From NCBI GenBank assembly GCA_963713975.1, contig OY970218.1, positions 3,136,001-3,200,000 on the forward strand: a DNA stretch of 64,000 nt. Direction: 5' to 3'. Shown one piece after another: positions 2,991-43,904 of the stretch; position 1 is the stretch's first letter, and each line of letters begins with the position of its first letter. This DNA comes from an uncultured Chloroflexia bacterium. Its GTDB lineage: Bacteria > Chloroflexota > Limnocylindria > Limnocylindrales > CSP1-4. Both the position numbers and the translations under genes were made by a program. The notes under the pieces were generated by a model. The model was given only the letters and a program-made list of their open reading frames with translations, did not search any database and was not told the origin of the DNA.

Positions 2991-3757
2991 GATCCCGGCG
3001 TCTGGTCGGGAGCCGAGGCTGGCTGCGTCGGGCTCGTGGAGGCCCGTGTGGCACGGGCAGCCTGCCGCTCCATCCGGAGCACCTCGAGCGCCTCGGCCGC
3101 GGCCAGCGTCTCGGCGATCCTGCGTGAAGGTCCCTCGCCGACGCCGAAGACCCGGCCGTCAAGGACCACCTCGATCCGGAACTGCTTCTCGTGGTCCGGC
3201 CCGACGGCCTCTACGATCCGGTACAGCGGCCGCTCTCCGGTGGTCCGCTGCGTGTGCTCCTGCAGCCGGCTCTTGGGGCTCTTGAGGGTCGTCAACGGGG
3301 AGTCGGCCGCGAGCTCCTCGGCCGCCCACGCCTGGATCCAGTCCCGTACGACATCCCAGCCGAGGTCAAGGTAGATCGCGCCAACCAGTGCCTCGAACGC
3401 GGACGCCAGGAGGGACGGGCGCACCCGACCACCCCGCTGGGCCTCTCCCTCGCCCAGGAACAGGTACGAGCCCAGGTCGAGTCGGACCGCGAGGCGGGCG
3501 AGACCCAGCGTGCTGACGATGAACGCGCGGCGCGCCGAAAGCACACCCTCGTCATCGGCGGGGTGGCGTCGGTACAGCGCTTCGGACACGGCAAGGCTGA
3601 CCACCGCGTCCCCAAGGAACTCCAGCCGCTCGTTGTGCCCCCGAACCGCGTCGGGATGCTCATGGAGCCAGCTGCTGTGGACGAGCGCCTGCTCAAGCAG
3701 GTCGCGATCTCGGATGGGGAGCCCGAGGCGCTCCGTCAGCGCGTCGGCCGGATGCAT
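2987..3757 (-). CDS. rnc: Ribonuclease III
   Basis: HNERLEFLGDAV signature; C-terminal dsRBD (PKSRLQE...GPDHEKQF). Confidence 0.98.
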   Translation of the reverse strand: MHPADALTERLGLPIRDRDLLEQALVHSSWLHEHPDAVRGHNERLEFLGDAVVSLAVSEALYRRHPADDEGVLSARRAFIVSTLGLARLAVRLDLGSYLFLGEGEAQRGGRVRPSLLASAFEALVGAIYLDLGWDVVRDWIQAWAAEELAADSPLTTLKSPKSRLQEHTQRTTGERPLYRIVEAVGPDHEKQFRIEVVLDGRVFGVGEGPSRRIAETLAAAEALEVLRMERQAARATRASTSPTQPASAPDQTPGS

Positions 3758-7453: not shown

Positions 7454-7966
7454 CTAGGCCCGCTGCGGCCCATCCTCCGCGGCAAGCTTGCCGGCCAGGA
7501 GCTCTGCGGCCGCACGGGGCAGCATCGATGCCACGTCGCCCCCGAACAGGGCAATCTCCTTCACCAGGCTGGAGGAGATATAGGAATGCTCCAGCGAGGT
7601 CATGAAGAACACGGTGTCGACGTCCGGCGCCAGCTGGTGGTTGTTGTGGGCCAGCTGGAGCTCCGCCTCGAAGTCCGCGATCGCCCGCAGCCCGCGGACG
7701 AGGAACGAGGCTCCGACCTGGTGGCAGAAGTCGACGGTCAGGCCGTCGAAGGTGGTGACCTCGACCAGCTCCGCGAGCGTGGCGTCGGCCTCGACGGCGG
7801 CGCGGATCACCGCGACCCGATCGGCTGTTGGCAGCAGCGGCGTCTTGCGGGGATTCCCGAGCACGGCCACGACAACGCGGTCGAAGACGTGCGTCGCGCG
7901 GCGGATCACGTCCAGGTGTCCGTTCGTGATCGGGTCGAAGGACCCGGGATAGACCGCGACCTTCAC
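7454..7966 (-). CDS. coaD: Phosphopantetheine adenylyltransferase
   Basis: YPGSFDPITNGHLD, RGLR, ISSSLVKE. Confidence 0.98.
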   Translation of the reverse strand: MKVAVYPGSFDPITNGHLDVIRRATHVFDRVVVAVLGNPRKTPLLPTADRVAVIRAAVEADATLAELVEVTTFDGLTVDFCHQVGASFLVRGLRAIADFEAELQLAHNNHQLAPDVDTVFFMTSLEHSYISSSLVKEIALFGGDVASMLPRAAAELLAGKLAAEDGPQRA

Positions 7967-34436: not shown

Positions 34437-34523
34437 TGGTGCCGAGGGCGAGGTTCGAACTCGCACGGGGTTGCCCCCAGCGGTGTTTAAGACCGCAGCG
34501 TCTGCCGGTTCCGCCACCTCGGC
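34437..34523 (-). tRNA. tRNA-Leu(TAA)
   Basis: GCCGAGG...anticodon arm GCGGT-CTTAAAC-ACCGC, long variable arm, GTTCGAA, encoded CCA. Confidence 0.95.
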
Positions 34524-34578: not shown

Positions 34579-36033
34579 CTATCCCCTTGCGCCGGGGCGT
34601 CGCGCCGTCAGGCGGGCGGCGCTCCAGCGGCATCCGCACAGGACCTTCGGGCAGGCGGGATGCGGCAGCATGGTGGCCTTCAGCTCCTCGCTGATCCGCA
34701 CGACGAGTCCACGATCCGCGCGGCACGTTTCGCAGCAGGAACCGGCCACAAGCACGGCCTCCCGGCCGGTCACGCGCAAGCCCTTGAGGTCCGCGATCGC
34801 TGCCTCACGCTCGAGGTCCCGGATCTCGTCAGGAGCAGGCGCGTCCGGGTCGGCGGCCTTGAGCAGGGACCGGGCCTGCGTCCGCCTGATCGAAGCCGCG
34901 TCTGCCCAACGGTGGTCCCGCTTCGCCGCCGCATAGGCGCGATTCGCGGTCTGCACGTAGAGGGCGCATGCCGCAGCGATCCCCTCCTCCGACGGGAGCG
35001 CGGAGGCGAGCCTGTGGACGCTGGCCGTGGACGCCCCCGTGGTCGTCGCCAGGACCAGCCAGCGGTCCCGCGGGCGGGCGAGTCGGGTGAGCTCCTTCAC
35101 ACGACGCTGCGCAGCCACCAGGGTGGCCGCCGCCGTCTCCGTGAGGTAGAGGACGCCGCCGTCGAGTCGCTTGACGACGATGCGCTCACGGCAGTTGCCG
35201 CAGCGGCGGCTCGAGGTGGGCCGGGGCTCGAGCAGGACGGCGCAGGACGGACAGGCTGCGAGCACGAGCGGCTGTCGACGTCGCCGAGGGGCCGCCTTCG
35301 GGAGAACGACCTGGCGCGCCGGTGGCACGGTGCGCGGCGGGCGAGGTGGGATGACCGACTTGCCGGACTTGGCCGCCGCCTGGGACCTGGTGTCACGCTT
35401 CTTCGCGCGGGGCACGGTTGGCTTCGGATGGGCACCGTTCAGATCGGCGTCAGCTTCGGCGACCGGCTCGAGCGTCGCAACCGGCTCGATCACGTCAGCT
35501 TTGGCGACAGGCTCTGGCGTCACGACAGGCTCTGGCGTCACGACCGGATCTGGCGTCACGACCGGATCTGGCGTCACCGCCTCGGGGGCTGGGGCGGGAA
35601 GCGCGACCGGCTCGGGCGTCACGACTGGCGTGGGCGTCACGACCGGCTCGCGGCGGTCCAGGTCCCAGTCGTCCGCGACCACCACGATCGACGGTACATG
35701 GGAGGCCCGGTGTCGAGCTCCGGCCGCCGCGACGACGTCATCGGCCATCACCGGGATCCCCGGCGACTCAAAGATCGGGACGCTCGCGGCCTCCGGCGCG
35801 GGATCCCCGGGGGCTTCTTCGAGCGGCTCCGGGTCGGCGGCCACCGCGTCATCGCGGGCGATGTCACCCGGGTCGAGACCCTCCCGCTGGAGGAGCAGGC
35901 GCTCCAGGCGCGCGGCGCTGCCCTGGCGGGCCAGCTCCAGCTCCAGCTGCTCTTCCTTGGATGATCGCTTGAGGATCCCGGGCACTCGTGCCACGCGCCG
36001 ACCCTCCTCCTTCGATGCGTCCCCGCTCGTCAT
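34579..36033 (-). CDS. Hypothetical protein with TPEPVV repeats, Zn-ribbon and C-terminal Cys/His motif
   Basis: 484-aa ORF; CPSC..CGNC and CCETC..PHPACPKVLCGC motifs; start uncertain. Confidence 0.75.
   Translation of the reverse strand: MTSGDASKEEGRRVARVPGILKRSSKEEQLELELARQGSAARLERLLLQREGLDPGDIARDDAVAADPEPLEEAPGDPAPEAASVPIFESPGIPVMADDVVAAAGARHRASHVPSIVVVADDWDLDRREPVVTPTPVVTPEPVALPAPAPEAVTPDPVVTPDPVVTPEPVVTPEPVAKADVIEPVATLEPVAEADADLNGAHPKPTVPRAKKRDTRSQAAAKSGKSVIPPRPPRTVPPARQVVLPKAAPRRRRQPLVLAACPSCAVLLEPRPTSSRRCGNCRERIVVKRLDGGVLYLTETAAATLVAAQRRVKELTRLARPRDRWLVLATTTGASTASVHRLASALPSEEGIAAACALYVQTANRAYAAAKRDHRWADAASIRRTQARSLLKAADPDAPAPDEIRDLEREAAIADLKGLRVTGREAVLVAGSCCETCRADRGLVVRISEELKATMLPHPACPKVLCGCRWSAARLTARRPGARG
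35506..35650. repeat. 18-bp coding tandem repeat (TP[ED]PVV units)
   Basis: ggcgtcacgac(a/c)gg(c/a)tct repeated ~4x plus degenerate copies. Confidence 0.9.
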
Positions 36034-36211
36034 ACAGGTATTCGCGGCCGGACGTCAGTGCAGAGTAGTCGGGTAGGGTCGTCGAGCGCAATTGCCGCCC
36101 GTCAACAATGGCGCACTCAGGCACCATGCCGGGCATCAGCATCGCCGGCGGCGGCGCCGCGGGACGCCCGTGTTCACGCGGCCTGGCCCTGTCGCCTGCC
36201 TCGGTCTGCGG

Positions 36212-36502
36212 TCAGCTCCACGTGAACGGAAGCAGGTCCTGGCAGACCTCGTGGCTGACGCCCTCGGGGTCCGCGGCCCGGCCCGGCGGCGTCTCGAACT
36301 GCCGCAGGGCGTGCTCCTCGCGGGTCGCCGCACGACACCACCGCACCTTGATCACGTAATGGGCGTGATCCCGGTGCGGGACCTTCTCCAGCCCGGTTGG
36401 AAACTCCTGCTCGATCCTGCCAACGAGACCGTCGACGCCACGGAGGACGACGAGGCCGAACTCCTTCCACGTGCCATGGATGCAGCTTGCGACGGTTGTC
36501 AT
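36212..36502 (-). CDS. Small hypothetical protein (96 aa)
   Basis: GAGGGA RBS before ATG 36502; TACGAT -10 at 36548-36553; globular-looking sequence MTTVASCIHGTWKEFGLVVL... Confidence 0.6.
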   Translation of the reverse strand: MTTVASCIHGTWKEFGLVVLRGVDGLVGRIEQEFPTGLEKVPHRDHAHYVIKVRWCRAATREEHALRQFETPPGRAADPEGVSHEVCQDLLPFTWS

Positions 36503-37009
36503 GACCAGGTTCCCTCGTGCGCTGGACACTCGCGTGCCCTCGCGACCATCGTAGGCGCGTGCCGGACGTGGCGTGGGCCGGTTGCAGCGTGGCGGGTGCG
36601 CGGCCAGAGGCGATCGGGCGCGAGCCGCTCGCCGACGCTGAGCCGGAGGCAGAGATCGGAGCGGCGTGCGCGGAACCGGGGGCGCCAGCGGCGTCGCGAG
36701 GCGGGCGACGGCACAGGCGACCGGCTCGCGCTGGGCGAGCGTTCGGCAAGGTCCGTCGCTGGGTCACGCCGGTCCGTGTTCACTGGAGGGGTGCCAGCGG
36801 CGTGAGCGGACTCATCGCGACGCCGCGTGCGCCGCGGCCTCATCGCAGCAGCGCGTATCTGTAGGTCAGGCGCACCTTCGCGAACCGTCCGATGGCGTCC
36901 GTGGAGTCAGCGATCACGCACGAACCGGCCATCCGTTCGGGCCCGGTGACCGGCTTCGATCGCCTCTACTGCTGCCCGCGTTACTGCCCAACTCCACCGT
37001 CCGACGCCC

Positions 37010-37165
37010 CTATGGCGCTCCGATAAGGTCGGCCCAGAGCTGTCCGGCGGCGCTGGGCCCACCCGCCGACAGGAACACCCAGATCGCGCCGATGGCGACC
37101 ACAGCGACGACGAGCTCCACGACGTAGCTCCGTGTGCTTCGTCTTTGGCGCTGGCGTCGGCCCAC
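37010..37165 (-). CDS. Small single-pass membrane protein (51 aa), not in ORF track
   Basis: GTG-GRRQRQRRSTRSYVVELVVAVVAIGAIWVFLSAGGPSAAGQLWADLIGAP*; basic N-terminus + TM; TAGCCT -10 6 nt upstream. Confidence 0.65.
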   Translation of the reverse strand: MGRRQRQRRSTRSYVVELVVAVVAIGAIWVFLSAGGPSAAGQLWADLIGAP

Positions 37166-37185
37166 ACGGACAGGCTAGCGCGCCG

Positions 37186-37222
37186 GTCATCCCGCCGTGA
37201 GCTGGTCCGCGTCGTTGAGATA
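37186..37222. repeat. Inter-cassette direct repeat copy R1
   Basis: gtcatcccgccgtgagctggtccgcgtcgttgagata; first 18 bp identical to R2. Confidence 0.85.
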
Positions 37223-37223
37223 C

Positions 37224-37778
37224 CTACTCGCAGGCGAACGGGACGTCTGCAAGGAACGCTTCCAACGCAGCAGTCGTCTCCGTGAGCAGCGCGGTTGCCG
37301 TGACAAGACGCGTGGTGGCCCGCCCGATGAGATCGAAGTCCCTCGCGCTTGCTCCTTGCTCAAGGTCGGACGCAACAGCGCCCCAGGCAGACAGCATCTT
37401 TCGGTGGGTCGCAACAAGATCCGTCGCCGGTCCCCAGCGAGGCACGCCGTCCAGTGCCACTTCGATTGCGTCGACATCCGTCTTCAGGGCAAAGGCCGTA
37501 GTTGCGATGGAATCGAAGTCGGGCTCGTCCGCGCTGAGCGCGGCGCCGACCTTGCCGAAGTCCTCGGCGAAGGGGCCGGCCATCCCATTCAGCGCTTCGC
37601 ACAGCGGGGCCTGGAACCCCTCAGGCCAAGGCTCATCACTGGAACTCACCCCACCAGTCGGCCGCGGGGTGCCTGCGGTCGCAGATACCGTGGGTGGTGG
37701 AGACGCCGCTGGAGCCGCTGTCGAGCAGCCGACAATCAGTCCCACGATCAACAGGCAGAACATCAGGATTGCCCGCAT
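37224..37778 (-). CDS. Putative lipoprotein with Pro/Thr linker and helical domain
   Basis: MRAILMFCLLIVGLIVG-C lipobox; GGAGG RBS. Confidence 0.8.
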   Translation of the reverse strand: MRAILMFCLLIVGLIVGCSTAAPAASPPPTVSATAGTPRPTGGVSSSDEPWPEGFQAPLCEALNGMAGPFAEDFGKVGAALSADEPDFDSIATTAFALKTDVDAIEVALDGVPRWGPATDLVATHRKMLSAWGAVASDLEQGASARDFDLIGRATTRLVTATALLTETTAALEAFLADVPFACE

Positions 37779-37825
37779 ACGCATTCCCTCCAGCTGGGAC
37801 GCACACTCAATCACAATGGCCGAGA

Positions 37826-37860
37826 GTCATCCCGCCGTGAGCTCGTCGGTGTCGCTCTGA
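37826..37860. repeat. Inter-cassette direct repeat copy R2
   Basis: gtcatcccgccgtgagctcgtcggtgtcgctctga. Confidence 0.85.
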
Positions 37861-37865
37861 GTCAG

Positions 37866-38390
37866 CTAGCAGCTGCCCTTACGGGTGATCTTGGTGACGA
37901 GGAATGCGGGCACGGTCGTGTTGCCGCCGATCTGGGTGTCGTAGCTGTACGAGCCGAGGCCAACGACGTTCATCACCACGACATCGTCCTCGACAACGTC
38001 GATGAGGGCGCGCGGCTCACCCGTGAAGTACGCGTTCTCGCCCTGATACCAGTACTTGAGCTTCTTGAAGGAGGCATTGCCCAGGAACGAGTCGTCACCG
38101 GTCGCGGCATCGAACTGGGTGATGCACGCCCAAAGCTGGTAGCCCTTGCCGGTGTAGTCGTCGGGCGCCTTGACGATCTTCTTCCAGTTGCGCTCGGTCA
38201 CCTTCGCGTGCGACTTGGGCAGCGAAATCTCGGGTTCGGGGGTCGTCACCTCCTCGGTGGTCCCTCCGCCGCTGCCCGGGTCCGCCGTCGCGGGCGCCTG
38301 GTTGATCGCAGGTTGCTGTGTCGTCGTTGCTGCTCCCCCGCACGCGCTGACCACCACCAGCGCAACCAGGAGGCCAAGAAGCCGCATCAC
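37866..38390 (-). CDS. Putative lipoprotein with TcdC-like OB-fold domain
   Basis: LVVVSA-C lipobox; WKKIVKAPDDYTGK...ITQF...EDDVV...GSYSYDTQIGGNTTVP pattern. Confidence 0.8.
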   Translation of the reverse strand: MMRLLGLLVALVVVSACGGAATTTQQPAINQAPATADPGSGGGTTEEVTTPEPEISLPKSHAKVTERNWKKIVKAPDDYTGKGYQLWACITQFDAATGDDSFLGNASFKKLKYWYQGENAYFTGEPRALIDVVEDDVVVMNVVGLGSYSYDTQIGGNTTVPAFLVTKITRKGSC

Positions 38391-38455
38391 CGTCCCTCTC
38401 CCTTTGTTCCGTCAGGTTGGCCCGGGTCCGCTCTCCTCACCACGATAGTCCTCAG

Positions 38456-38511
38456 GTCGCCCCGCCGTGAGGTGGTCGGCGTAGCCGAGATCGCTCCGGC
38501 GGCGTGGAGCC
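38456..38511. repeat. Inter-cassette direct repeat copy R3
   Basis: gtcgccccgccgtgaggtggtcggcgtagccgagatcgctccggcggcgtggagcc; aligns to R1/R2 and to R4. Confidence 0.8.
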
Positions 38512-38602
38512 GGGAGCGTTGCGCCGTGACCGGTTTCCCTCACACGGGAGTGAGCCAAGCGCTAGGCTCGGCTAGACGGAGCAACCAACGAGGGTGCAAC
38601 TC

Positions 38603-40006
38603 ATGGCGGTCGCGAAGCCAGCTCCAAGGTCTGCCGCGAAAGTGCCACCCAAGCCAGAGGAATTGTGGCAACCCGCGAGGCTCATTCCGACCACTGGGAT
38701 CGGTGGTCAGGACGAGCAGGAGCAACGGGCTACCTCCTCGCTCCTCGCCGTGATCAAGGCTGTACCCCAGTTCGGGCGGGCGATCACGGCGCATCTGGGC
38801 GCACCGGCCGGTCGGATCGAGACCTACACGGAGGTCCGTTTCCAGGACGCCGACAACAAGACGGTGATCCCCGACGGGGCGATCGTGGTGGAGCGCGGGA
38901 AGACGCGTTGGGTCTGTCTCGTCGAGGTGAAGACCGGCGGCGCACCGCTCCAGGCCGGGCAGATCGAGCGGTACCTCGACATCGCGAAGGTCCACGGGTT
39001 CGACGCCCTGCTCACGATCAGCAACCAGATCGCCTCGTCGCCGACGGAAAGCCCGGTAGCGGTCGATGCCCGCAAACTGAAGCGCGTGTCGCTCTATCAC
39101 ATCTCGTGGTGGCGAGTGATGACCATCGCTCGGGTATGGCACCAGCATCGAGGCATCGCTGACACGGACCAGGCATGGATCCTCGGCGAGCTCATCGCCT
39201 ACCTCGACCACGAGCGCGCTGGCGCCGGCGGCTTCGAGGATATGGGAGCGTCCTGGGTCGCCGTTCGCGACGGTGCGCGCCAACTGACCCTGCGAGCACC
39301 CGACAAGGACGTCCGAGACGTGGCCTCGCGCTGGGAGCAATTCGTCCAGTACCTCGCCTTGGGCCTGTGTCAGGACCTCGGCCGGGACGTCGATCCCGTC
39401 TGGCCTCGCAACCTCGACGTTGGTGCTCGCCGGGATCTGATCGTGAGAAACCTTGTCGAGAGCGGTCGGCTGGAGGCAACCGTTCGGGTCCCGGATGCAG
39501 CTGCGCCAATCGACCTTGCGGCCGACCTCCGCACGCGCTTGTTCACGACGAGCGTCGAGTTGGCCGCACCCCGAGATGGACGACCGAGGACCCGAGTCTC
39601 GTGGCTCCTCCGGCAGCTCCGCGACACCAACGACGCGCTTCGGATCGACGCCCGGTACCCGAATGTCAAGGAATCGGTCACGGTGATGCTGAAGGATGCC
39701 CGGGAACAGCCGGACCGGCTCCTCTACGCTCAGGATCCGAAGCGGGAGCCACGAGCGTTCCGGGTTTCGCTGTCCCGCGAGCTCGGTACGAAGCGCGGCA
39801 AGAATCAGGGCAGCTTCGTAAACGAGAGCAAGAAGCAGGCGCTCGATTTCTACCGGGAGGTCGTCCAGGGGCTCCGTGCTTGGAGCCCCAGCGCTCCTCG
39901 CTTGCCAGAGCAGAGTGCGGACAGCTCACCCCTAGCGTCTCCCGACCCGCCTAGCTTTGGCGACGGCGAGCGCGACTTCGGCGAGGCTACGCAGCCCGAG
40001 GGCTGA
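38603..40006 (+). CDS. Standalone PD-(D/E)XK nuclease-like protein (family often labelled 'stress response protein', sometimes TerD-fused)
   Basis: ARLIP...EQEQRATS.LLAV, PDGAI...LVEVKTG...QIERYLDIA...DALLTISNQ; GAGGG RBS; TAGGCT -10 at 38563-38568. Confidence 0.8.
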   Translation: MAVAKPAPRSAAKVPPKPEELWQPARLIPTTGIGGQDEQEQRATSSLLAVIKAVPQFGRAITAHLGAPAGRIETYTEVRFQDADNKTVIPDGAIVVERGKTRWVCLVEVKTGGAPLQAGQIERYLDIAKVHGFDALLTISNQIASSPTESPVAVDARKLKRVSLYHISWWRVMTIARVWHQHRGIADTDQAWILGELIAYLDHERAGAGGFEDMGASWVAVRDGARQLTLRAPDKDVRDVASRWEQFVQYLALGLCQDLGRDVDPVWPRNLDVGARRDLIVRNLVESGRLEATVRVPDAAAPIDLAADLRTRLFTTSVELAAPRDGRPRTRVSWLLRQLRDTNDALRIDARYPNVKESVTVMLKDAREQPDRLLYAQDPKREPRAFRVSLSRELGTKRGKNQGSFVNESKKQALDFYREVVQGLRAWSPSAPRLPEQSADSSPLASPDPPSFGDGERDFGEATQPEG

Positions 40007-40091
40007 AGCACGGTGCACCAAGCCCGATAGACCGCCAGGCGCCCCCCCCGGCCGCCCCCCGGTCGGGGGGCCTCACCGATGACGGAGGTAG

Positions 40092-40245
40092 ATGGTGCCA
40101 CCCGCCAGGCTGGCCGACGCAGCCGAGTTCAGCTCGCCAGGATGTGGAGCCATTGATCGCAGCACCTCGACTCGGACAACACCGCGCCCGAGTACCCGGA
40201 ATTCCCTTCCGGCCTATGCGCGGCCGATGCGGCCCGTGGATGGAA
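40092..40245 (+). pseudogene. Degenerate AlpA/excisionase-like HTH gene remnant containing repeat copy R4 (40101-40151)
   Basis: GGAGGT RBS, MVPPARLADAAEF..., later YPEFP.. and GP/W-like codons in shifted frames; nucleotide similarity to R3. Confidence 0.4.
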
Positions 40246-40248
40246 GTC

Positions 40249-40283
40249 AGAAGCCCCCGGCCGTATTGGCCGAGGGCTTCTTT
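40249..40283. terminator. Hairpin terminator downstream of tRNA-Phe-Gly-Gln-Cys operon
   Basis: agaagcccccggcc-gtatt-ggccgagggcttcttt. Confidence 0.7.
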
Positions 40284-40292
40284 GCGCTCAGT

Positions 40293-40369
40293 TGGAGGCG
40301 ACGATCGGATTCGAACCGATGAATAGAGGTTTTGCAGACCTCCGTGTTGAGCCACTTCACCACGTCGCC
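40293..40369 (-). tRNA. tRNA-Cys(GCA)
   Basis: GGCGACG...GAGGT-CTGCAAA-ACCTC...GTTCGAATCC...CCA. Confidence 0.96.
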
Positions 40370-40409
40370 CCGTGGCGCCGGTCCATTCGCCGGCGGGCGG
40401 TTGTCAGAT

Positions 40410-40483
40410 TGGCTGCCCCTCGAGGATTCGAACCTCGGCTAACGGATCCAAAGTCCGCTGTCCTACCACTAGACGAAGGGGCA
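40410..40483 (-). tRNA. tRNA-Gln(TTG)
   Basis: TGCCCCT...CGGA-CTTTGGA-TCCG...GTTCGAATCC...CCA. Confidence 0.96.
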
Positions 40484-40518
40484 GCGGGACCGGGTCTGGT
40501 GCTCGATATGGGGAGGAA

Positions 40519-40594
40519 TGGAGCGGAAGACGGGGTTCGAACCCGCGACCTCAACCTTGGCAAGGTTGCGCTCTACCAACTGAGCCACTTCCGC
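40519..40594 (-). tRNA. tRNA-Gly(GCC)
   Basis: GCGGAAG...CAACC-TTGCCAA-GGTTG...CCA. Confidence 0.97.
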
Positions 40595-40613
40595 TCGATG
40601 ACCGACCAGGTGA

Positions 40614-40689
40614 TGGTGCCGAGAGCCAGATTCGAACTGGCGACACCGCGATTTTCAGTCGCGTGCTCTACCAACTGAGCTATCTCGGC
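40614..40689 (-). tRNA. tRNA-Phe(GAA)
   Basis: GCCGAGA...CGCGA-CTGAAAA-TCGCG...CCA; TGcTATTCT -10 at ~40729-40737. Confidence 0.97.
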
Positions 40690-42510: not shown

Positions 42511-43826
42511 TGTCTGAGTTCACGACATAGGTGACACCTGATAGGGCACACATGAGTCGGGACATGCGTGACAGTCCGCCGCATGTCGAAGCACCGCGTG
42601 TCCGTCCTCAAGGTCGTCTCTGGGCAGCTGTCCGTCACCGCCGCCGCAGCGGAGTGCCACCTCTCCCGGGGCCATCTACAGCGGCTCCTCGCCAGGTACC
42701 GGGAGGCCGGCCTCGACGGCCTGGAGCCCCGGTCCCGTCGGCCGCGGACGAGCCCCCATGCGGTGCCCGACGGCGTCCGTGCCCGGATCACCGCGCTGCG
42801 GACGGAGCTTGCCGGGCGGGGTCTCGACGCCGGTCCTGCCACCATCGCCTGGCACCTGGAGCGCGAGGGCCTGACGGTGCCCTCGACCTCCACGATCCGC
42901 CGGGTCCTCCACGCCGCGGGCCTCGTCGTGCCCGAGCCGCACAAGCGGCCCCGGAGCTCCTGGATCCGCTTCGAGGCGGCCGCGCCCAACGGGGTCTGGC
43001 AGGCGGACTTCACCCACTGGCGGCTCGCCGACGGGAGCGGGGTCGAGATCGCGAGCTGGCTCGACGACCACTCCCGCTTCCTGCTCGGGTGCACGGTGTT
43101 CCGCCGGGTCAGCGGCGACGACGTGGTCGCGACCTTCACCGCCGCCGGCGACGAGCACGGCTGGCCCGCCGCCACGCTCACCGACAACGGGACCGTGTAC
43201 ACCGCCCGGCTGGTCGGAGGTCGCAACGGCCTCGAGCACCTGCTCGCGTACCTCGGCATCCGCCAGAAGAACGGGGCTCCTGGCCACCCCCAGACCCAGG
43301 GGAAGGTCGAGCGCTTCCACCAGACCCTCAAGCGCTGGCTGGCACGGCAGCCACGCGCGCGGACCCTCGCGGCGCTCCAGGCCCAGCTCGACGCCTTCCG
43401 CGACGTCTACAACGAGCAGCGGCCCCACCGGGCGATCGGCCGGCGGACACCCGGCGAGGCGTACCGGGCGATCCCGAAGGACCGGCCATCGGCCCCCGCC
43501 GGCCGCGGCCACTTCCGCCTGCGCTACGACACCACCGATGCCAAGGGTGCCATGACCCTGCGCCGGGCAGGGCGCCTTCACCACCTCAAGGTCGGCCAGG
43601 CCCACGCCCGCACCAAGGTGCTCGCGATCGTGGACGAGCAGGCGGTCACGGTCGTCGCCCTCCACACGGGCGAGATCCTGTCGGCCCATCGCATCGAGCC
43701 CGACAAGGGCTACTGGCGCAACACGCGGAGAGACCCCGGCCGATGGCCGGGGTCTCAGGCGACCGGGTGACTCCATGTGTCGCATATGTCGCGACTCATG
43801 TGTCGCACATGTCGCGACTCATGACA
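42511..43826 (+). mobile_element. IS481-family insertion sequence
   Basis: TGT...ACA ends; ~26-bp imperfect terminal inverted repeats; two 23-bp tandem repeats at right end (43774-43819). Confidence 0.9.
42583..43770 (+). CDS. IS481-family DDE transposase
   Basis: N-terminal HTH, WQADF, DDHSR, TDNG, PQTQGKVERFHQTLK, YNEQRPH. Confidence 0.96.
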   Translation: MSKHRVSVLKVVSGQLSVTAAAAECHLSRGHLQRLLARYREAGLDGLEPRSRRPRTSPHAVPDGVRARITALRTELAGRGLDAGPATIAWHLEREGLTVPSTSTIRRVLHAAGLVVPEPHKRPRSSWIRFEAAAPNGVWQADFTHWRLADGSGVEIASWLDDHSRFLLGCTVFRRVSGDDVVATFTAAGDEHGWPAATLTDNGTVYTARLVGGRNGLEHLLAYLGIRQKNGAPGHPQTQGKVERFHQTLKRWLARQPRARTLAALQAQLDAFRDVYNEQRPHRAIGRRTPGEAYRAIPKDRPSAPAGRGHFRLRYDTTDAKGAMTLRRAGRLHHLKVGQAHARTKVLAIVDEQAVTVVALHTGEILSAHRIEPDKGYWRNTRRDPGRWPGSQATG

Positions 43827-43827
43827 T

Positions 43828-43904
<77 letters not shown>

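What the first reader, a model, noticed from the sequence alone, without database searches (positions are those of the whole stretch)
36975..40245. Integron-like array of single-gene cassettes delimited by non-attC direct repeats, downstream of tRNA-Cys
Seen: four unrelated genes (51-aa membrane protein 37010-37165, lipoprotein 37224-37778, OB-fold lipoprotein 37866-38390, PD-(D/E)XK nuclease 38603-40006) alternate one-for-one with a degenerate direct repeat. R1 (37186) and R2 (37826) share an exact 18-mer, gtcatcccgccgtgagct. R3 (38456) shares cccgccgtgag-tggtcggcgt. R4 (40101) aligns to R3 over ~50 bp (cccgcc..agg.tgg.cg.cg.agccgag.tc.gctc...gtggagcc). In R1 and R2 the cccgcc core starts 33-35 nt from the stop codon of the neighbouring gene, and a weak cccgcg sits 35 nt from the stop of the first cassette (36975). 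The cargo looks less GC-rich than the flanks (by eye). Known: site-gene-site-gene layout with surface and defence cargo is typical of integrons, but these sites lack the RYYYAAC...GTTRRRY attC structure and no integrase lies in the window. Inference: a cassette-capture system acting in trans at a tRNA-adjacent hotspot.
Basis: partly seen in the sequence, partly recalled or inferred. Interest (0 to 1): 0.78.

Follow-up and report, generated by a model that had tools for sequence, protein, structure and literature searches.

The report
Palindromic repeats between island genes
Three of the reported repeats are real and belong to a genus-specific family of about 70-base palindromic DNA elements that sit at the joints between small accessory genes in tRNA-linked genomic islands, but they are not integron sites and no cassette-capturing enzyme was found.

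Summary
R1, R2 and R3 are real direct repeats. They are the only three copies in the 3.62-Mb genome by a profile of R1-R3. R4 and the 36975 site are not members.

The repeats lie in a ~3.7-kb insert of lower GC that the closest relative lacks. The insert sits in a variable gap between tRNA-Leu and tRNA-Cys.

They belong to a family of 65-69-nt GC-rich imperfect palindromes. The family was found in 45 of 70 genomes of the genus and in 0 of 139 genomes of other genera in the order. R3 is a full copy. R1 and R2 are 3' part-copies that abut the stop codons of the genes before them.

Copies cluster in accessory islands, several of them next to tRNA genes, and are co-oriented in 22 of 22 neighbour pairs. 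Four comparisons in relatives place duplication, indel or fusion joints in or at an element.

There is no attC pattern, no integron integrase, no Y1 transposase, no target-site duplication and no fixed orientation relative to genes.

Verdict: a new island-associated repeat family that marks module junctions. The integron-like mechanism is unproven.

The parts
34437..34523 (-). tRNA-Leu(taa). This is the left conserved anchor of the variable gap.
   Evidence: ARAGORN. It is conserved next to the upstream genes in most relatives' loci.
36575..40245 (.). Approximate species-specific insert of about 3.7 kb with lower GC. It is absent from the closest relative, G013.
   Evidence: G013 has about 111 nt between the homologue of window 36517 and tRNA-Cys. 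GC profile. The two ends share no terminal repeats.
37010..37165 (-). Predicted 51-aa membrane protein with a GTG start 6 nt after a TAGCCT -10-like hexamer. It is possibly leaderless. The gene call is weak.
   Evidence: ORF list. GC3 is about 0.78. The sequence was read. No convincing homology to the small membrane proteins of relatives (E 0.14).
37171..37221 (-). R1, a part-copy (3' about 45 nt) of the palindromic element. It begins 2 nt after the stop codon of the gene before it.
   Evidence: (17.2 bits, model positions 36-65)
37224..37778 (-). 184-aa predicted lipoprotein (lipobox LIVGC). It is an orphan with moderate GC3.
   Evidence: Only itself is found among the proteins searched. There is no paralogue in the genome.
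37811..37861 (-). R2, a part-copy of the element. It begins 5 nt after the stop codon of the lipoprotein gene before it and shares an exact 18-mer with R1.
   Evidence: (9.7 bits, E 0.37 with the family model)
37866..38390 (-). 174-aa lipoprotein of a family conserved in the genus, with high GC3.
   Evidence: Homologues at 53-62% identity lie at other loci of five relatives. In G084 a homologue is followed by a full element.
38443..38516 (-). R3, a full-length copy of the 65-69-nt palindromic element.
   Evidence: 57.4 bits, E 4.5e-16, model positions 1-74.
38594..40006 (+). 470-aa protein of a large unannotated family. Its N-terminal domain is probably a PD-(D/E)XK nuclease.
   Evidence: 3617 homologues with E<=1e-5, the 120 listed at 64-81% identity. 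D94, E111 and K113 are invariant. AlphaFold model pLDDT 81.5. Weak Foldseek matches to restriction endonucleases.
40093..40151 (.). It is not a member of the repeat family.
40249..40285 (+). GC-rich hairpin followed by TTT beside tRNA-Cys. A hairpin stands at the same position in G013.
   Evidence: Read from the sequence. It was not picked up by the simple terminator scan.
40293..40369 (-). tRNA-Cys(gca), first of a four-tRNA cluster. This is the right conserved anchor.
   Evidence: Homology with relatives stops at its 3' end in 15 of 17 loci (40293 in 15; 40292 and 40288 in two others are within 5 nt; 40250 in one).

Best explanation
R1-R3 are copies of a genus-restricted, 65-69-nt GC-rich imperfect palindrome. 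Its ends are CTCCGG...CCGGAGG and its invariant core is CGGCGGGGCGACCGG on the strand of the three genes. The family lives in accessory genomic islands, several of them tRNA-linked.

In this window there is one full copy (R3) and two locally duplicated 3' part-copies (R1, R2). They separate three small envelope-protein genes inside a ~3.7-kb remnant island between tRNA-Leu and tRNA-Cys.

The elements mark the joints at which gene-sized modules have been joined, duplicated or lost.

Shown: family membership, distribution, strict co-orientation within arrays, and coincidence of several joints with the elements.

Inferred: the joints arise because the palindromes are recombination-prone. This could be recombination between dispersed copies or breakage at the hairpin or cruciform during island shuffling and decay, and it need not involve a dedicated integron-type machine.
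For: 1. Local uniqueness. Only three copies exist in the genome by a profile of R1-R3. The family model adds one weak hit (22 bits) elsewhere.

2. Family and range. Four matches to R3 appear in three relatives in a genus-wide DNA search. A sequence-only model built from 8 copies hits 45 of 70 genus genomes at E<=0.01, with 1-10 hits each. It hits 0 of 139 genomes from 27 other genera of the order at E<=1e-4. It gives only 3 weak hits (E 0.013-0.16) in 254 kb of control loci.

3. Arrays. All 22 of 22 neighbour pairs no more than 10 kb apart lie on the same strand. So do the three copies in the window.

4. Island context. Of the 29 relatives' best loci, 13 have no homology to this genome within 3 kb and 7 lie beside a tRNA gene conserved here. 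Three arrays lie beside tRNA-Pro(ggg) with an integrase or its remnant, and two of these have a partial tRNA copy at the far end.

5. Joints.
- A G072 internal duplication (92% identity, 1168 nt) ends in the middle of the element.
- A G063 duplication (653 nt) ends at the element's outer edge in both copies.
- G078 carries about 2 kb (two genes plus a 97%-identical extra element copy) that starts exactly at the 3' edge of the element shared with G071.
- Two G081 copies are fusions of the element with the 3' end of a small gene.

6. Palindrome. The 16 proposed pairs form in 88% of cells, against 26-52% when the partner is slid.

7. Nearest relatives of most copies lie in other genomes at 84-94% identity. 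Flanking housekeeping DNA is 74-87% identical.
Against: - The mechanism is inferred. No recombination event was observed.
- The enrichment of alignment end-points near elements is modest: 12 of 262 against 4.3 expected. The end-points are not independent, and 6 of the 12 come from one locus.
- The joints fall at different positions in the element (centre, outer edge, between hairpin and core).
- The proposed structure has no covariation beyond shuffles. Single copies do not fold better than shuffled sequence, with z from -1.9 to +1.1.
- Strict co-orientation and high cross-species conservation of a 15-nt core are not explained by passive recombination hot spots. They fit a directional, protein-recognised site or a transcription-linked function better.
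- My gene calls in relatives are crude, being based on GC3 only.
Confidence: 0.5

Rival explanations
1. The elements are recombination sites of a site-specific cassette system that is integron-like or dif-module-like in function. A tyrosine recombinase encoded elsewhere recognises the palindrome (arms around the central YTCGATC) and inserts or excises single-gene or few-gene modules directionally.
For: - Co-orientation holds in 22 of 22 neighbour pairs.
- The element is a 65-69-nt imperfect palindrome with conserved ends and a more variable middle.
- Arrays have spacings of about 0.6-1.2 kb in G000, G057, G014 and G078.
- Near-identical element copies flank genes absent from a relative: R2-gene-R1 here, and the G078 against G071 comparison.
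- R1, R2 and the G072 breakpoint all start near the central GATC.
- In G071 an island integrase lies divergent from the array.
- Copies within an array are heterogeneous, and their closest kin lie in other genomes, as in mobile cassette pools.
Against: - No attC pattern is present.
- The genome has only three PF00589 genes, none within 200 kb of the window.
- The G071 integrase is a generic family member: 53 bits against a 265-bit cut-off for integron integrase.
- Element orientation relative to the flanking genes is mixed. The upstream gene is on the same strand in 15 cases and the opposite strand in 10. The downstream gene is 12 and 12.
- The number of genes between elements ranges from 0 to 3.
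- Joint positions are not at one fixed point.
- R1 and R2 lack the 5' arm, so they could not be palindromic substrates.
- In G078 there is no element between the last inserted gene and the resident gene.
Confidence: 0.2
2. The element is a transcription signal shared by envelope-protein genes. It would be a terminator or insulator hairpin, or a promoter or operator recognised by a genus-specific regulator such as an ECF sigma factor. The array look would arise because each small gene has its own copy.
For: - The copies are intergenic.
- R1, R3 and one G081 copy have a TANNNY hexamer 7-8 nt after the core.
- R1's hexamer sits 6 nt before the GTG start.
- In G081 two copies lie just upstream of c-di-GMP-II-type riboswitches and their genes.
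- Many copies are followed by a short T-containing patch.
- ECF sigma and anti-sigma-like ORFs lie near some arrays (judged by eye; not tested).
- The 15-nt core is invariant in the ten aligned copies and nearly so across species.
Against: - Orientation relative to neighbouring genes is mixed, and some copies lie between convergent genes.
- The distance from the core to the next start codon ranges from 26 to more than 100 nt. The distance to a -10-like hexamer ranges from 7 to 28 nt.
- No consensus promoter or terminator is found in 36400-40400.
- Homologues of the 174-aa lipoprotein in five relatives have no such motif upstream.
- R1 and R2 cannot form the hairpin.
Confidence: 0.12
3. The element is a non-autonomous mobile element, a MITE-like palindrome, that transposes into island DNA. 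The genes between copies would be incidental.
For: - The element has sharp, constant ends and inverted-repeat arms.
- Copies 84-94% identical lie in different species with unrelated flanks.
- There are 1-10 copies per genome with patchy distribution.
Against: - No target-site duplication is seen in 17 full copies.
- Strict co-orientation in arrays is unexpected for transposition.
- No Y1 transposase is found in five carrier genomes.
- No clean filled-versus-empty site was found.
Confidence: 0.1
4. R1-R3 are a chance or purely local feature, for example leftovers of a tandem duplication of one gene unit, with no wider meaning.
For: The spacing is nearly equal at 640 and 630 nt. The three copies are found only at this place in the genome by a profile of R1-R3.
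Against: - The two lipoproteins are unrelated (E 2.9).
- R3 matches a family found in 44 other genomes of the genus.
Confidence: 0.03

Closest known systems
Integron cassette arrays without integrase (CALIN; Cury et al. 2016, PMC4889954, passages read)
   Same: Both are co-oriented imperfect-palindrome sites of about 60-140 nt that separate mostly single, unrelated, often unannotated genes. Both lack a nearby integrase and occur in chromosomes.
   Different: - There are no R''/R' boxes (RYYYAAC...GTTRRRY).
- No integron integrase is present in the genome.
- The sites are not consistently at the 3' ends of genes.
- Two of the three local copies are half-sites.
- IntegronFinder itself could not be run.
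dif modules bounded by pdif (XerC/XerD) sites in Acinetobacter plasmids (PMC13141974 and PMC6449649; abstracts seen in the listing)
   Same: Small gene modules are bounded by short recombinase-type sites and shuffled between replicons by an enzyme encoded elsewhere.
   Different: - pdif sites are 28-nt Xer sites in alternating orientation (recalled, not from a call).
- Here the elements are 65-69 nt, co-oriented and chromosomal.
- No resemblance to a dif site was tested.
REP/BIME elements and their RAYT transposases (PMC3733652; abstract seen in the listing)
   Same: Both are GC-rich extragenic palindromes with proposed roles in termination, mRNA stability and recombination.
   Different: - REPs are 20-40 nt, carry a GTAG or CGTC end tag and occur at high copy (abstract).
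- Here the elements are 65-69 nt, at 1-10 copies, clustered in islands and co-oriented.
- No Y1 transposase is found in 5 of 5 carrier genomes.
MITE-like palindromes such as Correia elements of Neisseria (recalled, no call)
   Same: Both are short inverted-repeat elements in intergenic DNA that can carry promoters or terminators and mark rearrangement points.
   Different: No target-site duplication is present. Copy number is far lower. Orientation is strictly shared within arrays.
tRNA-derived att repeats of integrative islands
   Same: Both lie in tRNA-linked islands. The element has a T-arm-like hairpin, GYCGG-YTCGATC-CCGGY.
   Different: The element has no significant similarity to tRNA-Pro, tRNA-Cys or any of the genome's 50 tRNAs beyond the generic T-loop. 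ARAGORN and Rfam do not call it.

Membership tests
Integron / CALIN | attC sites with conserved R''/L'' and L'/R' boxes (RYYYAAC ... GTTRRRY) in an imperfect palindrome | tested here: not met
   A pattern scan finds 0 matches in the whole 64-kb window on both strands, and neither box is present in R1-R3. This is a simple pattern, not IntegronFinder's covariance model.
Integron / CALIN | Integron integrase (IntI) in the element or the genome | tested here: not met
   The genome has three PF00589 matches, none in the window. The intact integrase beside an array in G071 scores 53 bits against a 265-bit cut-off for TIGR02249.
Integron / CALIN | Co-oriented sites, one per cassette, at the 3' end of a promoterless ORF | tested here: inconclusive
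   Co-orientation holds in 22 of 22 neighbour pairs. Orientation relative to genes is mixed (15 same and 10 opposite upstream; 12 and 12 downstream). The number of genes between sites ranges from 0 to 3 (crude gene calls).
Integron / CALIN | Cassettes excise as circles | not testable with these tools
   No sequencing run was listed for the region.
REP / RAYT system | 20-40-nt palindromes with a GTAG or CGTC end tag, at high copy and dispersed | tested here: not met
   The elements are 60-69 nt in 15 of the 17 bounded copies; the two longer values (80, 84) come from a mis-set 3' boundary. There are 1-10 copies per genome, clustered. No end tag is seen.
REP / RAYT system | Associated Y1 (IS200/IS605-type) transposase | tested here: not met
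   PF01797 is found in 0 of 5 carrier genomes; the control search hits 6 of 14 reference genomes.
MITE | Terminal inverted repeats plus target-site duplication | tested here: not met
   Inverted arms are present, but no duplication flanks any of 17 full copies.
Intrinsic terminator | GC-rich hairpin followed by a T run, downstream of a gene on the same strand | tested here: inconclusive
   The simple scan finds none in 36400-40400. The full copy can form a hairpin, but the T patch is short and positions relative to genes are mixed.
tRNA-derived att repeat | Sequence identity with the 3' part of the adjacent tRNA gene | tested here: not met
   Local alignment scores are 7.5-10.5 against tRNA-Pro and tRNA-Cys. 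The best match to any of the genome's tRNAs is limited to the T-loop.
Known RNA families (Rfam 15) | Match to a curated covariance model | tested here: not met
   Only the tRNA is found in 36000-40400 at E<=1. Nothing is found at element positions in four relatives' loci.

The most novel reading that the evidence does not exclude
These 65-69-nt palindromes are the recombination sites of a previously undescribed, non-attC gene-cassette system of an uncultured Chloroflexota genus. A tyrosine recombinase acting in trans would exchange strands near the central GATC and stack single envelope-protein and defence genes directionally in tRNA-linked islands. This would be a functional analogue of integrons that arose independently.
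Probability: 0.17. Interest if true: 0.85.

Novelty: new variant of a known kind. Interest (0 to 1): 0.45.

Why it matters
If the elements only mark recombination-prone joints, this finding is a useful but modest description. It would describe a lineage-specific repeat family that helps shuffle small secreted-protein and membrane-protein genes in the accessory islands of an uncultured Chloroflexota genus.

If the elements are true recombinase sites, this would be a second, independently evolved cassette system besides integrons and dif modules. The site is defined well enough to test directly: a 65-69-nt consensus, an invariant 15-nt core, strict directionality and 45 carrier genomes. The covariance model built here could be used to mine metagenomes for arrays and for the enzyme that travels with them.

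Tried and rejected
- **Tandem duplication of one gene unit.** Rejected: the two lipoproteins are unrelated.
- **Genome-wide REP or promoter motif.** Rejected: only three copies exist by a profile of R1-R3.
- **Motif as part of the 174-aa lipoprotein's own promoter.** Rejected: five homologues in relatives lack it.
- **Terminal repeats of the 3.7-kb insert.** None found.
- **R4 and the 36975 site as members.** Rejected.
- **Element derived from the 3' end of a multi-copy small gene (85-90 aa, no Pfam or NCBIfam).** I first believed this from a MAFFT alignment. An HMM of the gene's 3' end matches only 2 of 22 copies, and those two are fusions. The long form is therefore not derived from the gene.
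- **tRNA-derived att site.** Rejected.
- **G000 layout as the G084 layout plus one inserted gene.** Only the lipoprotein and the element are shared. Homology of the small membrane proteins is not supported (E 0.14).
- **Within-array homogeneity.** Not general: the nearest relative lies in the same array for 6 of 55 copies. R1 against R2 was not scored there because their overlap is too short.
- **Filled-versus-empty site comparison.** The only locus with both flanks conserved in this genome has an entirely different spacer.
- **Structure.** RNAalifold on 41 copies gave no pairs. My hand-drawn structure shows no covariation beyond shuffles.
- **Protein Atlas for the small gene.** Only unnamed clusters.
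- **PDB sequence search and PADLOC for the 470-aa protein.** Nothing.
- **Sequencing runs.** None was listed and no RNA holder was listed.
- **Unused tools.** Complex prediction and the search of protein representatives were not used.
- **Supplements.** Papers' supplements were not opened. The supplementary figures of PMC4889954 on the taxonomic spread of integrons could bear on whether Chloroflexota integrons resemble this locus.
- **Literature.** I found no paper describing this repeat family. That rests on two searches only.

Full report
**The observation**

The window is positions 3136001-3200000 of a single 3.62-Mb contig with 70.8% GC.

The repeat finder reports one family of three 51-nt direct copies at 37171-37221 (R1), 37811-37861 (R2) and 38441-38491 (R3). 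They are spaced 640 and 630 nt apart.
- The 17-mer shared by R1 and R2 occurs only at these two places in the genome.
- The 11-mer core occurs 13 times in the genome, three of them here.
- A profile of the three copies finds only these three sites (E 6e-15 to 3e-14). The next best hit has E 0.2.

The reported R4 is not found by this profile or by the later family model. Its alignment to R3 scores 18.5, which 0.8% of 3000 random genome segments reach. R1 and R2 score 8.5 there, below the null mean of 12.1. Nothing supports the 36975 site.

GC falls to 0.63-0.68 across the region, against 0.69-0.74 outside. tRNA-Cys heads a four-tRNA cluster at 40293-40689, and tRNA-Leu(taa) lies at 34437-34523.

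**The setting**

In 17 relatives' loci the conserved backbone runs up to tRNA-Leu and resumes at the 3' end of tRNA-Cys. Homology breaks at 40293 in 15 loci, at 40292 and 40288 in two, and at 40250 in one. The gap between the two tRNAs ranges from about 0.1 to 5.7 kb.

In the closest relative (G013, 87-93% identity in the flanks) the gap holds homologues of the window's 484-aa and 105-aa ORFs. About 111 nt then separate these from tRNA-Cys. Roughly 36575-40245 is therefore specific to this genome.

The insert has no terminal repeats and no integrase. The genome's three PF00589 genes are all elsewhere. An IS481-type transposase lies at 42568-43770.

**The cargo**

None of the four genes has a Pfam, NCBIfam or PADLOC match.
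- The 184-aa lipoprotein is an orphan.
- The 174-aa lipoprotein belongs to a family found at other loci in five relatives at 53-62% identity.
- The 470-aa protein belongs to a very large, highly conserved, unannotated family: 3617 proteins at E<=1e-5, with the 120 listed at 64-81% identity. D94, E111 and K113 are invariant. A confident model (pLDDT 81.5) gives only weak Foldseek matches to restriction endonucleases, with best E 3e-3. The PD-(D/E)XK reading is therefore plausible but not proven.
- The 51-aa ORF is a weak gene call.

**What the repeats are**

A DNA search of 70 genomes of the genus returned four 64-76-nt matches to the R3 region (79-85% identity) in three other genomes. Aligning these copies showed a shared unit of about 70 nt.

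A sequence-only covariance model built from eight copies gave these results:
- It finds the element in 45 of 70 genus genomes at E<=0.01, with 1-10 hits each.
- It finds it in 0 of 139 genomes from 27 other genera of the same order at E<=1e-4.
- It gives three weak hits (E 0.013-0.16) in 254 kb of control loci from relatives. These controls were the syntenic tRNA-Leu/tRNA-Cys gaps and the loci of the cargo homologues.

An exact 22-nt pattern found the element outside the genus nowhere convincingly in 185,579 species. Four of the nine stretches (five matches) lie on one contig of a MAG whose record title says Chloroflexia. Five are single matches in unrelated phyla and are probably chance.

In the window the model scores as follows:

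| Copy | Bits | Model positions | E-value |
|---|---|---|---|
| R3 | 57.4 | 1-74 | 4.5e-16 |
| R1 | 17.2 | 36-65 | 0.0017 |
| R2 | 9.7 | 36-61 | 0.37 |

R3 is thus a full copy. R1 and R2 retain only the 3' part. By eye their similarity to R3 starts at the central GATC, 2 and 5 nt after the stop codons of the genes before them.

The consensus from 36 distinct copies is CTCCGGCTCCGCGCCCGYCGGYTCGATCCCGGYYCGCCGGCCAGNYCRCGRCGGGGCGACCGGRGG on the strand of the three genes. Its length is 60-69 nt in 15 of the 17 copies I could bound.

The element is an imperfect palindrome. My 16 proposed pairs (outer stem, middle stem and a T-arm-like hairpin) form in 88% of cells, against 26-52% when the partner is slid. 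There is no covariation beyond shuffles. Single copies do not fold better than shuffled sequence.

Rfam and ARAGORN see nothing there. The element is not derived from the neighbouring tRNAs.

**Where the copies sit**

Copies cluster. In the list there are 14 clusters with 22 neighbour pairs no more than 10 kb apart, and all 22 pairs are on the same strand. The three copies in the window are co-oriented too. A few weak opposite-strand hits (E>0.005) appear in the more permissive local search.

Of the 29 best loci from other genomes, 13 have no homology to this genome within 3 kb. Seven lie beside a tRNA gene that is conserved here: Pro(ggg) three times, Arg(tct) twice, Gly(ccc) and Leu(taa).

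Three arrays (G071, G084, G072) lie next to tRNA-Pro(ggg), with an integrase or its remnant beside the tRNA. Two of them have a partial tRNA copy at the far end, so they are ordinary integrase-type islands. The intact G071 integrase is a generic family member.

Genes next to the elements are mostly small, and many have signal-peptide or lipoprotein-like N-termini (crude GC3-based calls). Orientation of the element relative to its neighbours is mixed. The upstream gene is on the same strand in 15 cases, opposite in 10 and absent within 400 nt in 10. The downstream gene is 12, 12 and 11. These counts cover the 35 copies of at least 20 bits outside called genes.

**Joints at the elements**

Four comparisons place a rearrangement joint in or at an element.
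1. Within G072, a 1168-nt duplication (92% identity) loses its identity in the middle of the element, near GATCGA.
2. Within G063, a 653-nt duplication ends at the element's outer edge in both copies.
3. G071 and G078 share a flank plus an element at 88.5% identity. Homology stops exactly at the element's 3' end and resumes about 20 nt before a shared small membrane-protein gene. In between, G078 has about 2 kb holding two unrelated genes and a second element copy 97% identical to the first.
4. Two G081 copies are fusions of the element's core side with the last 52 nt of a small multi-copy gene.

The window's R2-gene-R1 arrangement, an orphan gene between two near-identical part-copies, is of the same kind as case 3.

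The overall enrichment is modest and the counts are not independent. Twelve of 262 alignment end-points fall near elements against 4.3 expected, and six of the 12 come from one locus. The joints are not at one fixed position in the element.

**What speaks against a cassette machine**
- The attC box pattern is absent from the whole window.
- There is no integron integrase.
- No Y1 transposase is found in five carriers.
- No target-site duplication is seen in 17 copies.
- The number of genes between neighbouring elements ranges from 0 to 3.
- Copies in one array are usually not each other's closest relatives (6 of 55). The closest relatives lie in other genomes at 84-94% identity.

That last point, together with strict co-orientation and the invariant core, is also what keeps the cassette and regulatory readings alive. 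Passive hot spots do not explain these features well.

**Verdict**

Its mechanism is not shown, and membership in the integron family fails on the features I could test.

The best-supported reading is a new, genus-restricted, island-associated palindromic repeat family that marks module junctions (0.5). The rivals are a site-specific cassette system (0.2), a transcription signal (0.12), a MITE-like mobile element (0.1) and a local accident (0.03).

Noticed in passing
L048:8012-8095, L048:11343-11427, L048:12602-12657, L049:430-515, L049:1087-1171, L050:5909-5997: Rfam matches to the c-di-GMP-II-GAG and -GCG riboswitch variants (four at or above the gathering score) in two relatives. Those in L048 lie just upstream of predicted secreted or lipoprotein genes, and two of them sit directly after a copy of the palindromic element.
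   Followed up: partly
L089:3573-3842, L049:7044-7319, L086:7841-8083, L085:5433-6014 and others: A multi-copy small gene family (about 85-90 aa, ending ...REWTAVAQSELEVVREMARCLRLIREGRVPE) has no Pfam or NCBIfam match. Intact and fragmentary copies are scattered through the same islands, sometimes fused to or followed by the element. No copy is present in the window's genome.
   Followed up: partly
window 38594-40006: The 470-aa protein belongs to a very large unannotated family (3617 hits at E<=1e-5, the 120 listed at 64-81% identity; one source calls a member 'stress response protein'). It has an invariant D...EVK motif and a confident AlphaFold model with only weak resemblance to restriction endonucleases.
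   Followed up: partly
window 42568-43770: An IS481-family transposase (rve, HTH_32 and LZ_Tnp_IS481 domains) lies next to tRNA-Val (43828-43904), 2 kb beyond the tRNA cluster.
   Followed up: no
window 36530-37000: The left 450 nt of the species-specific insert has no frame with a convincing GC3 signal and no annotated homologue. It may be decayed sequence.
   Followed up: partly
G000 contig C1 2322604-2322684 (outside the window): ARAGORN calls a tRNA of undetermined type with a four-base anticodon (gatg).
   Followed up: no
window 40249-40285 and L011:11958-11995 (oriented copy): A GC-rich hairpin followed by a short T run sits between the variable region and tRNA-Cys in both this genome and its closest relative, although the sequences differ.
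   Followed up: no
L087:1186-1262 with 7705-7800; L091:15589-15665 with 3007-3111: Two relatives carry islands at tRNA-Pro(ggg) bounded by a partial copy of the tRNA (about 6.5 kb and 12.5 kb). An integrase or its remnant lies next to the tRNA, and the element arrays lie inside these islands.
   Followed up: partly
G000 contig C1 1067417-1067474 (outside the window): This is the only other hit of the family model in this genome (22 bits, E 5e-4). Its context was not examined.
   Followed up: no
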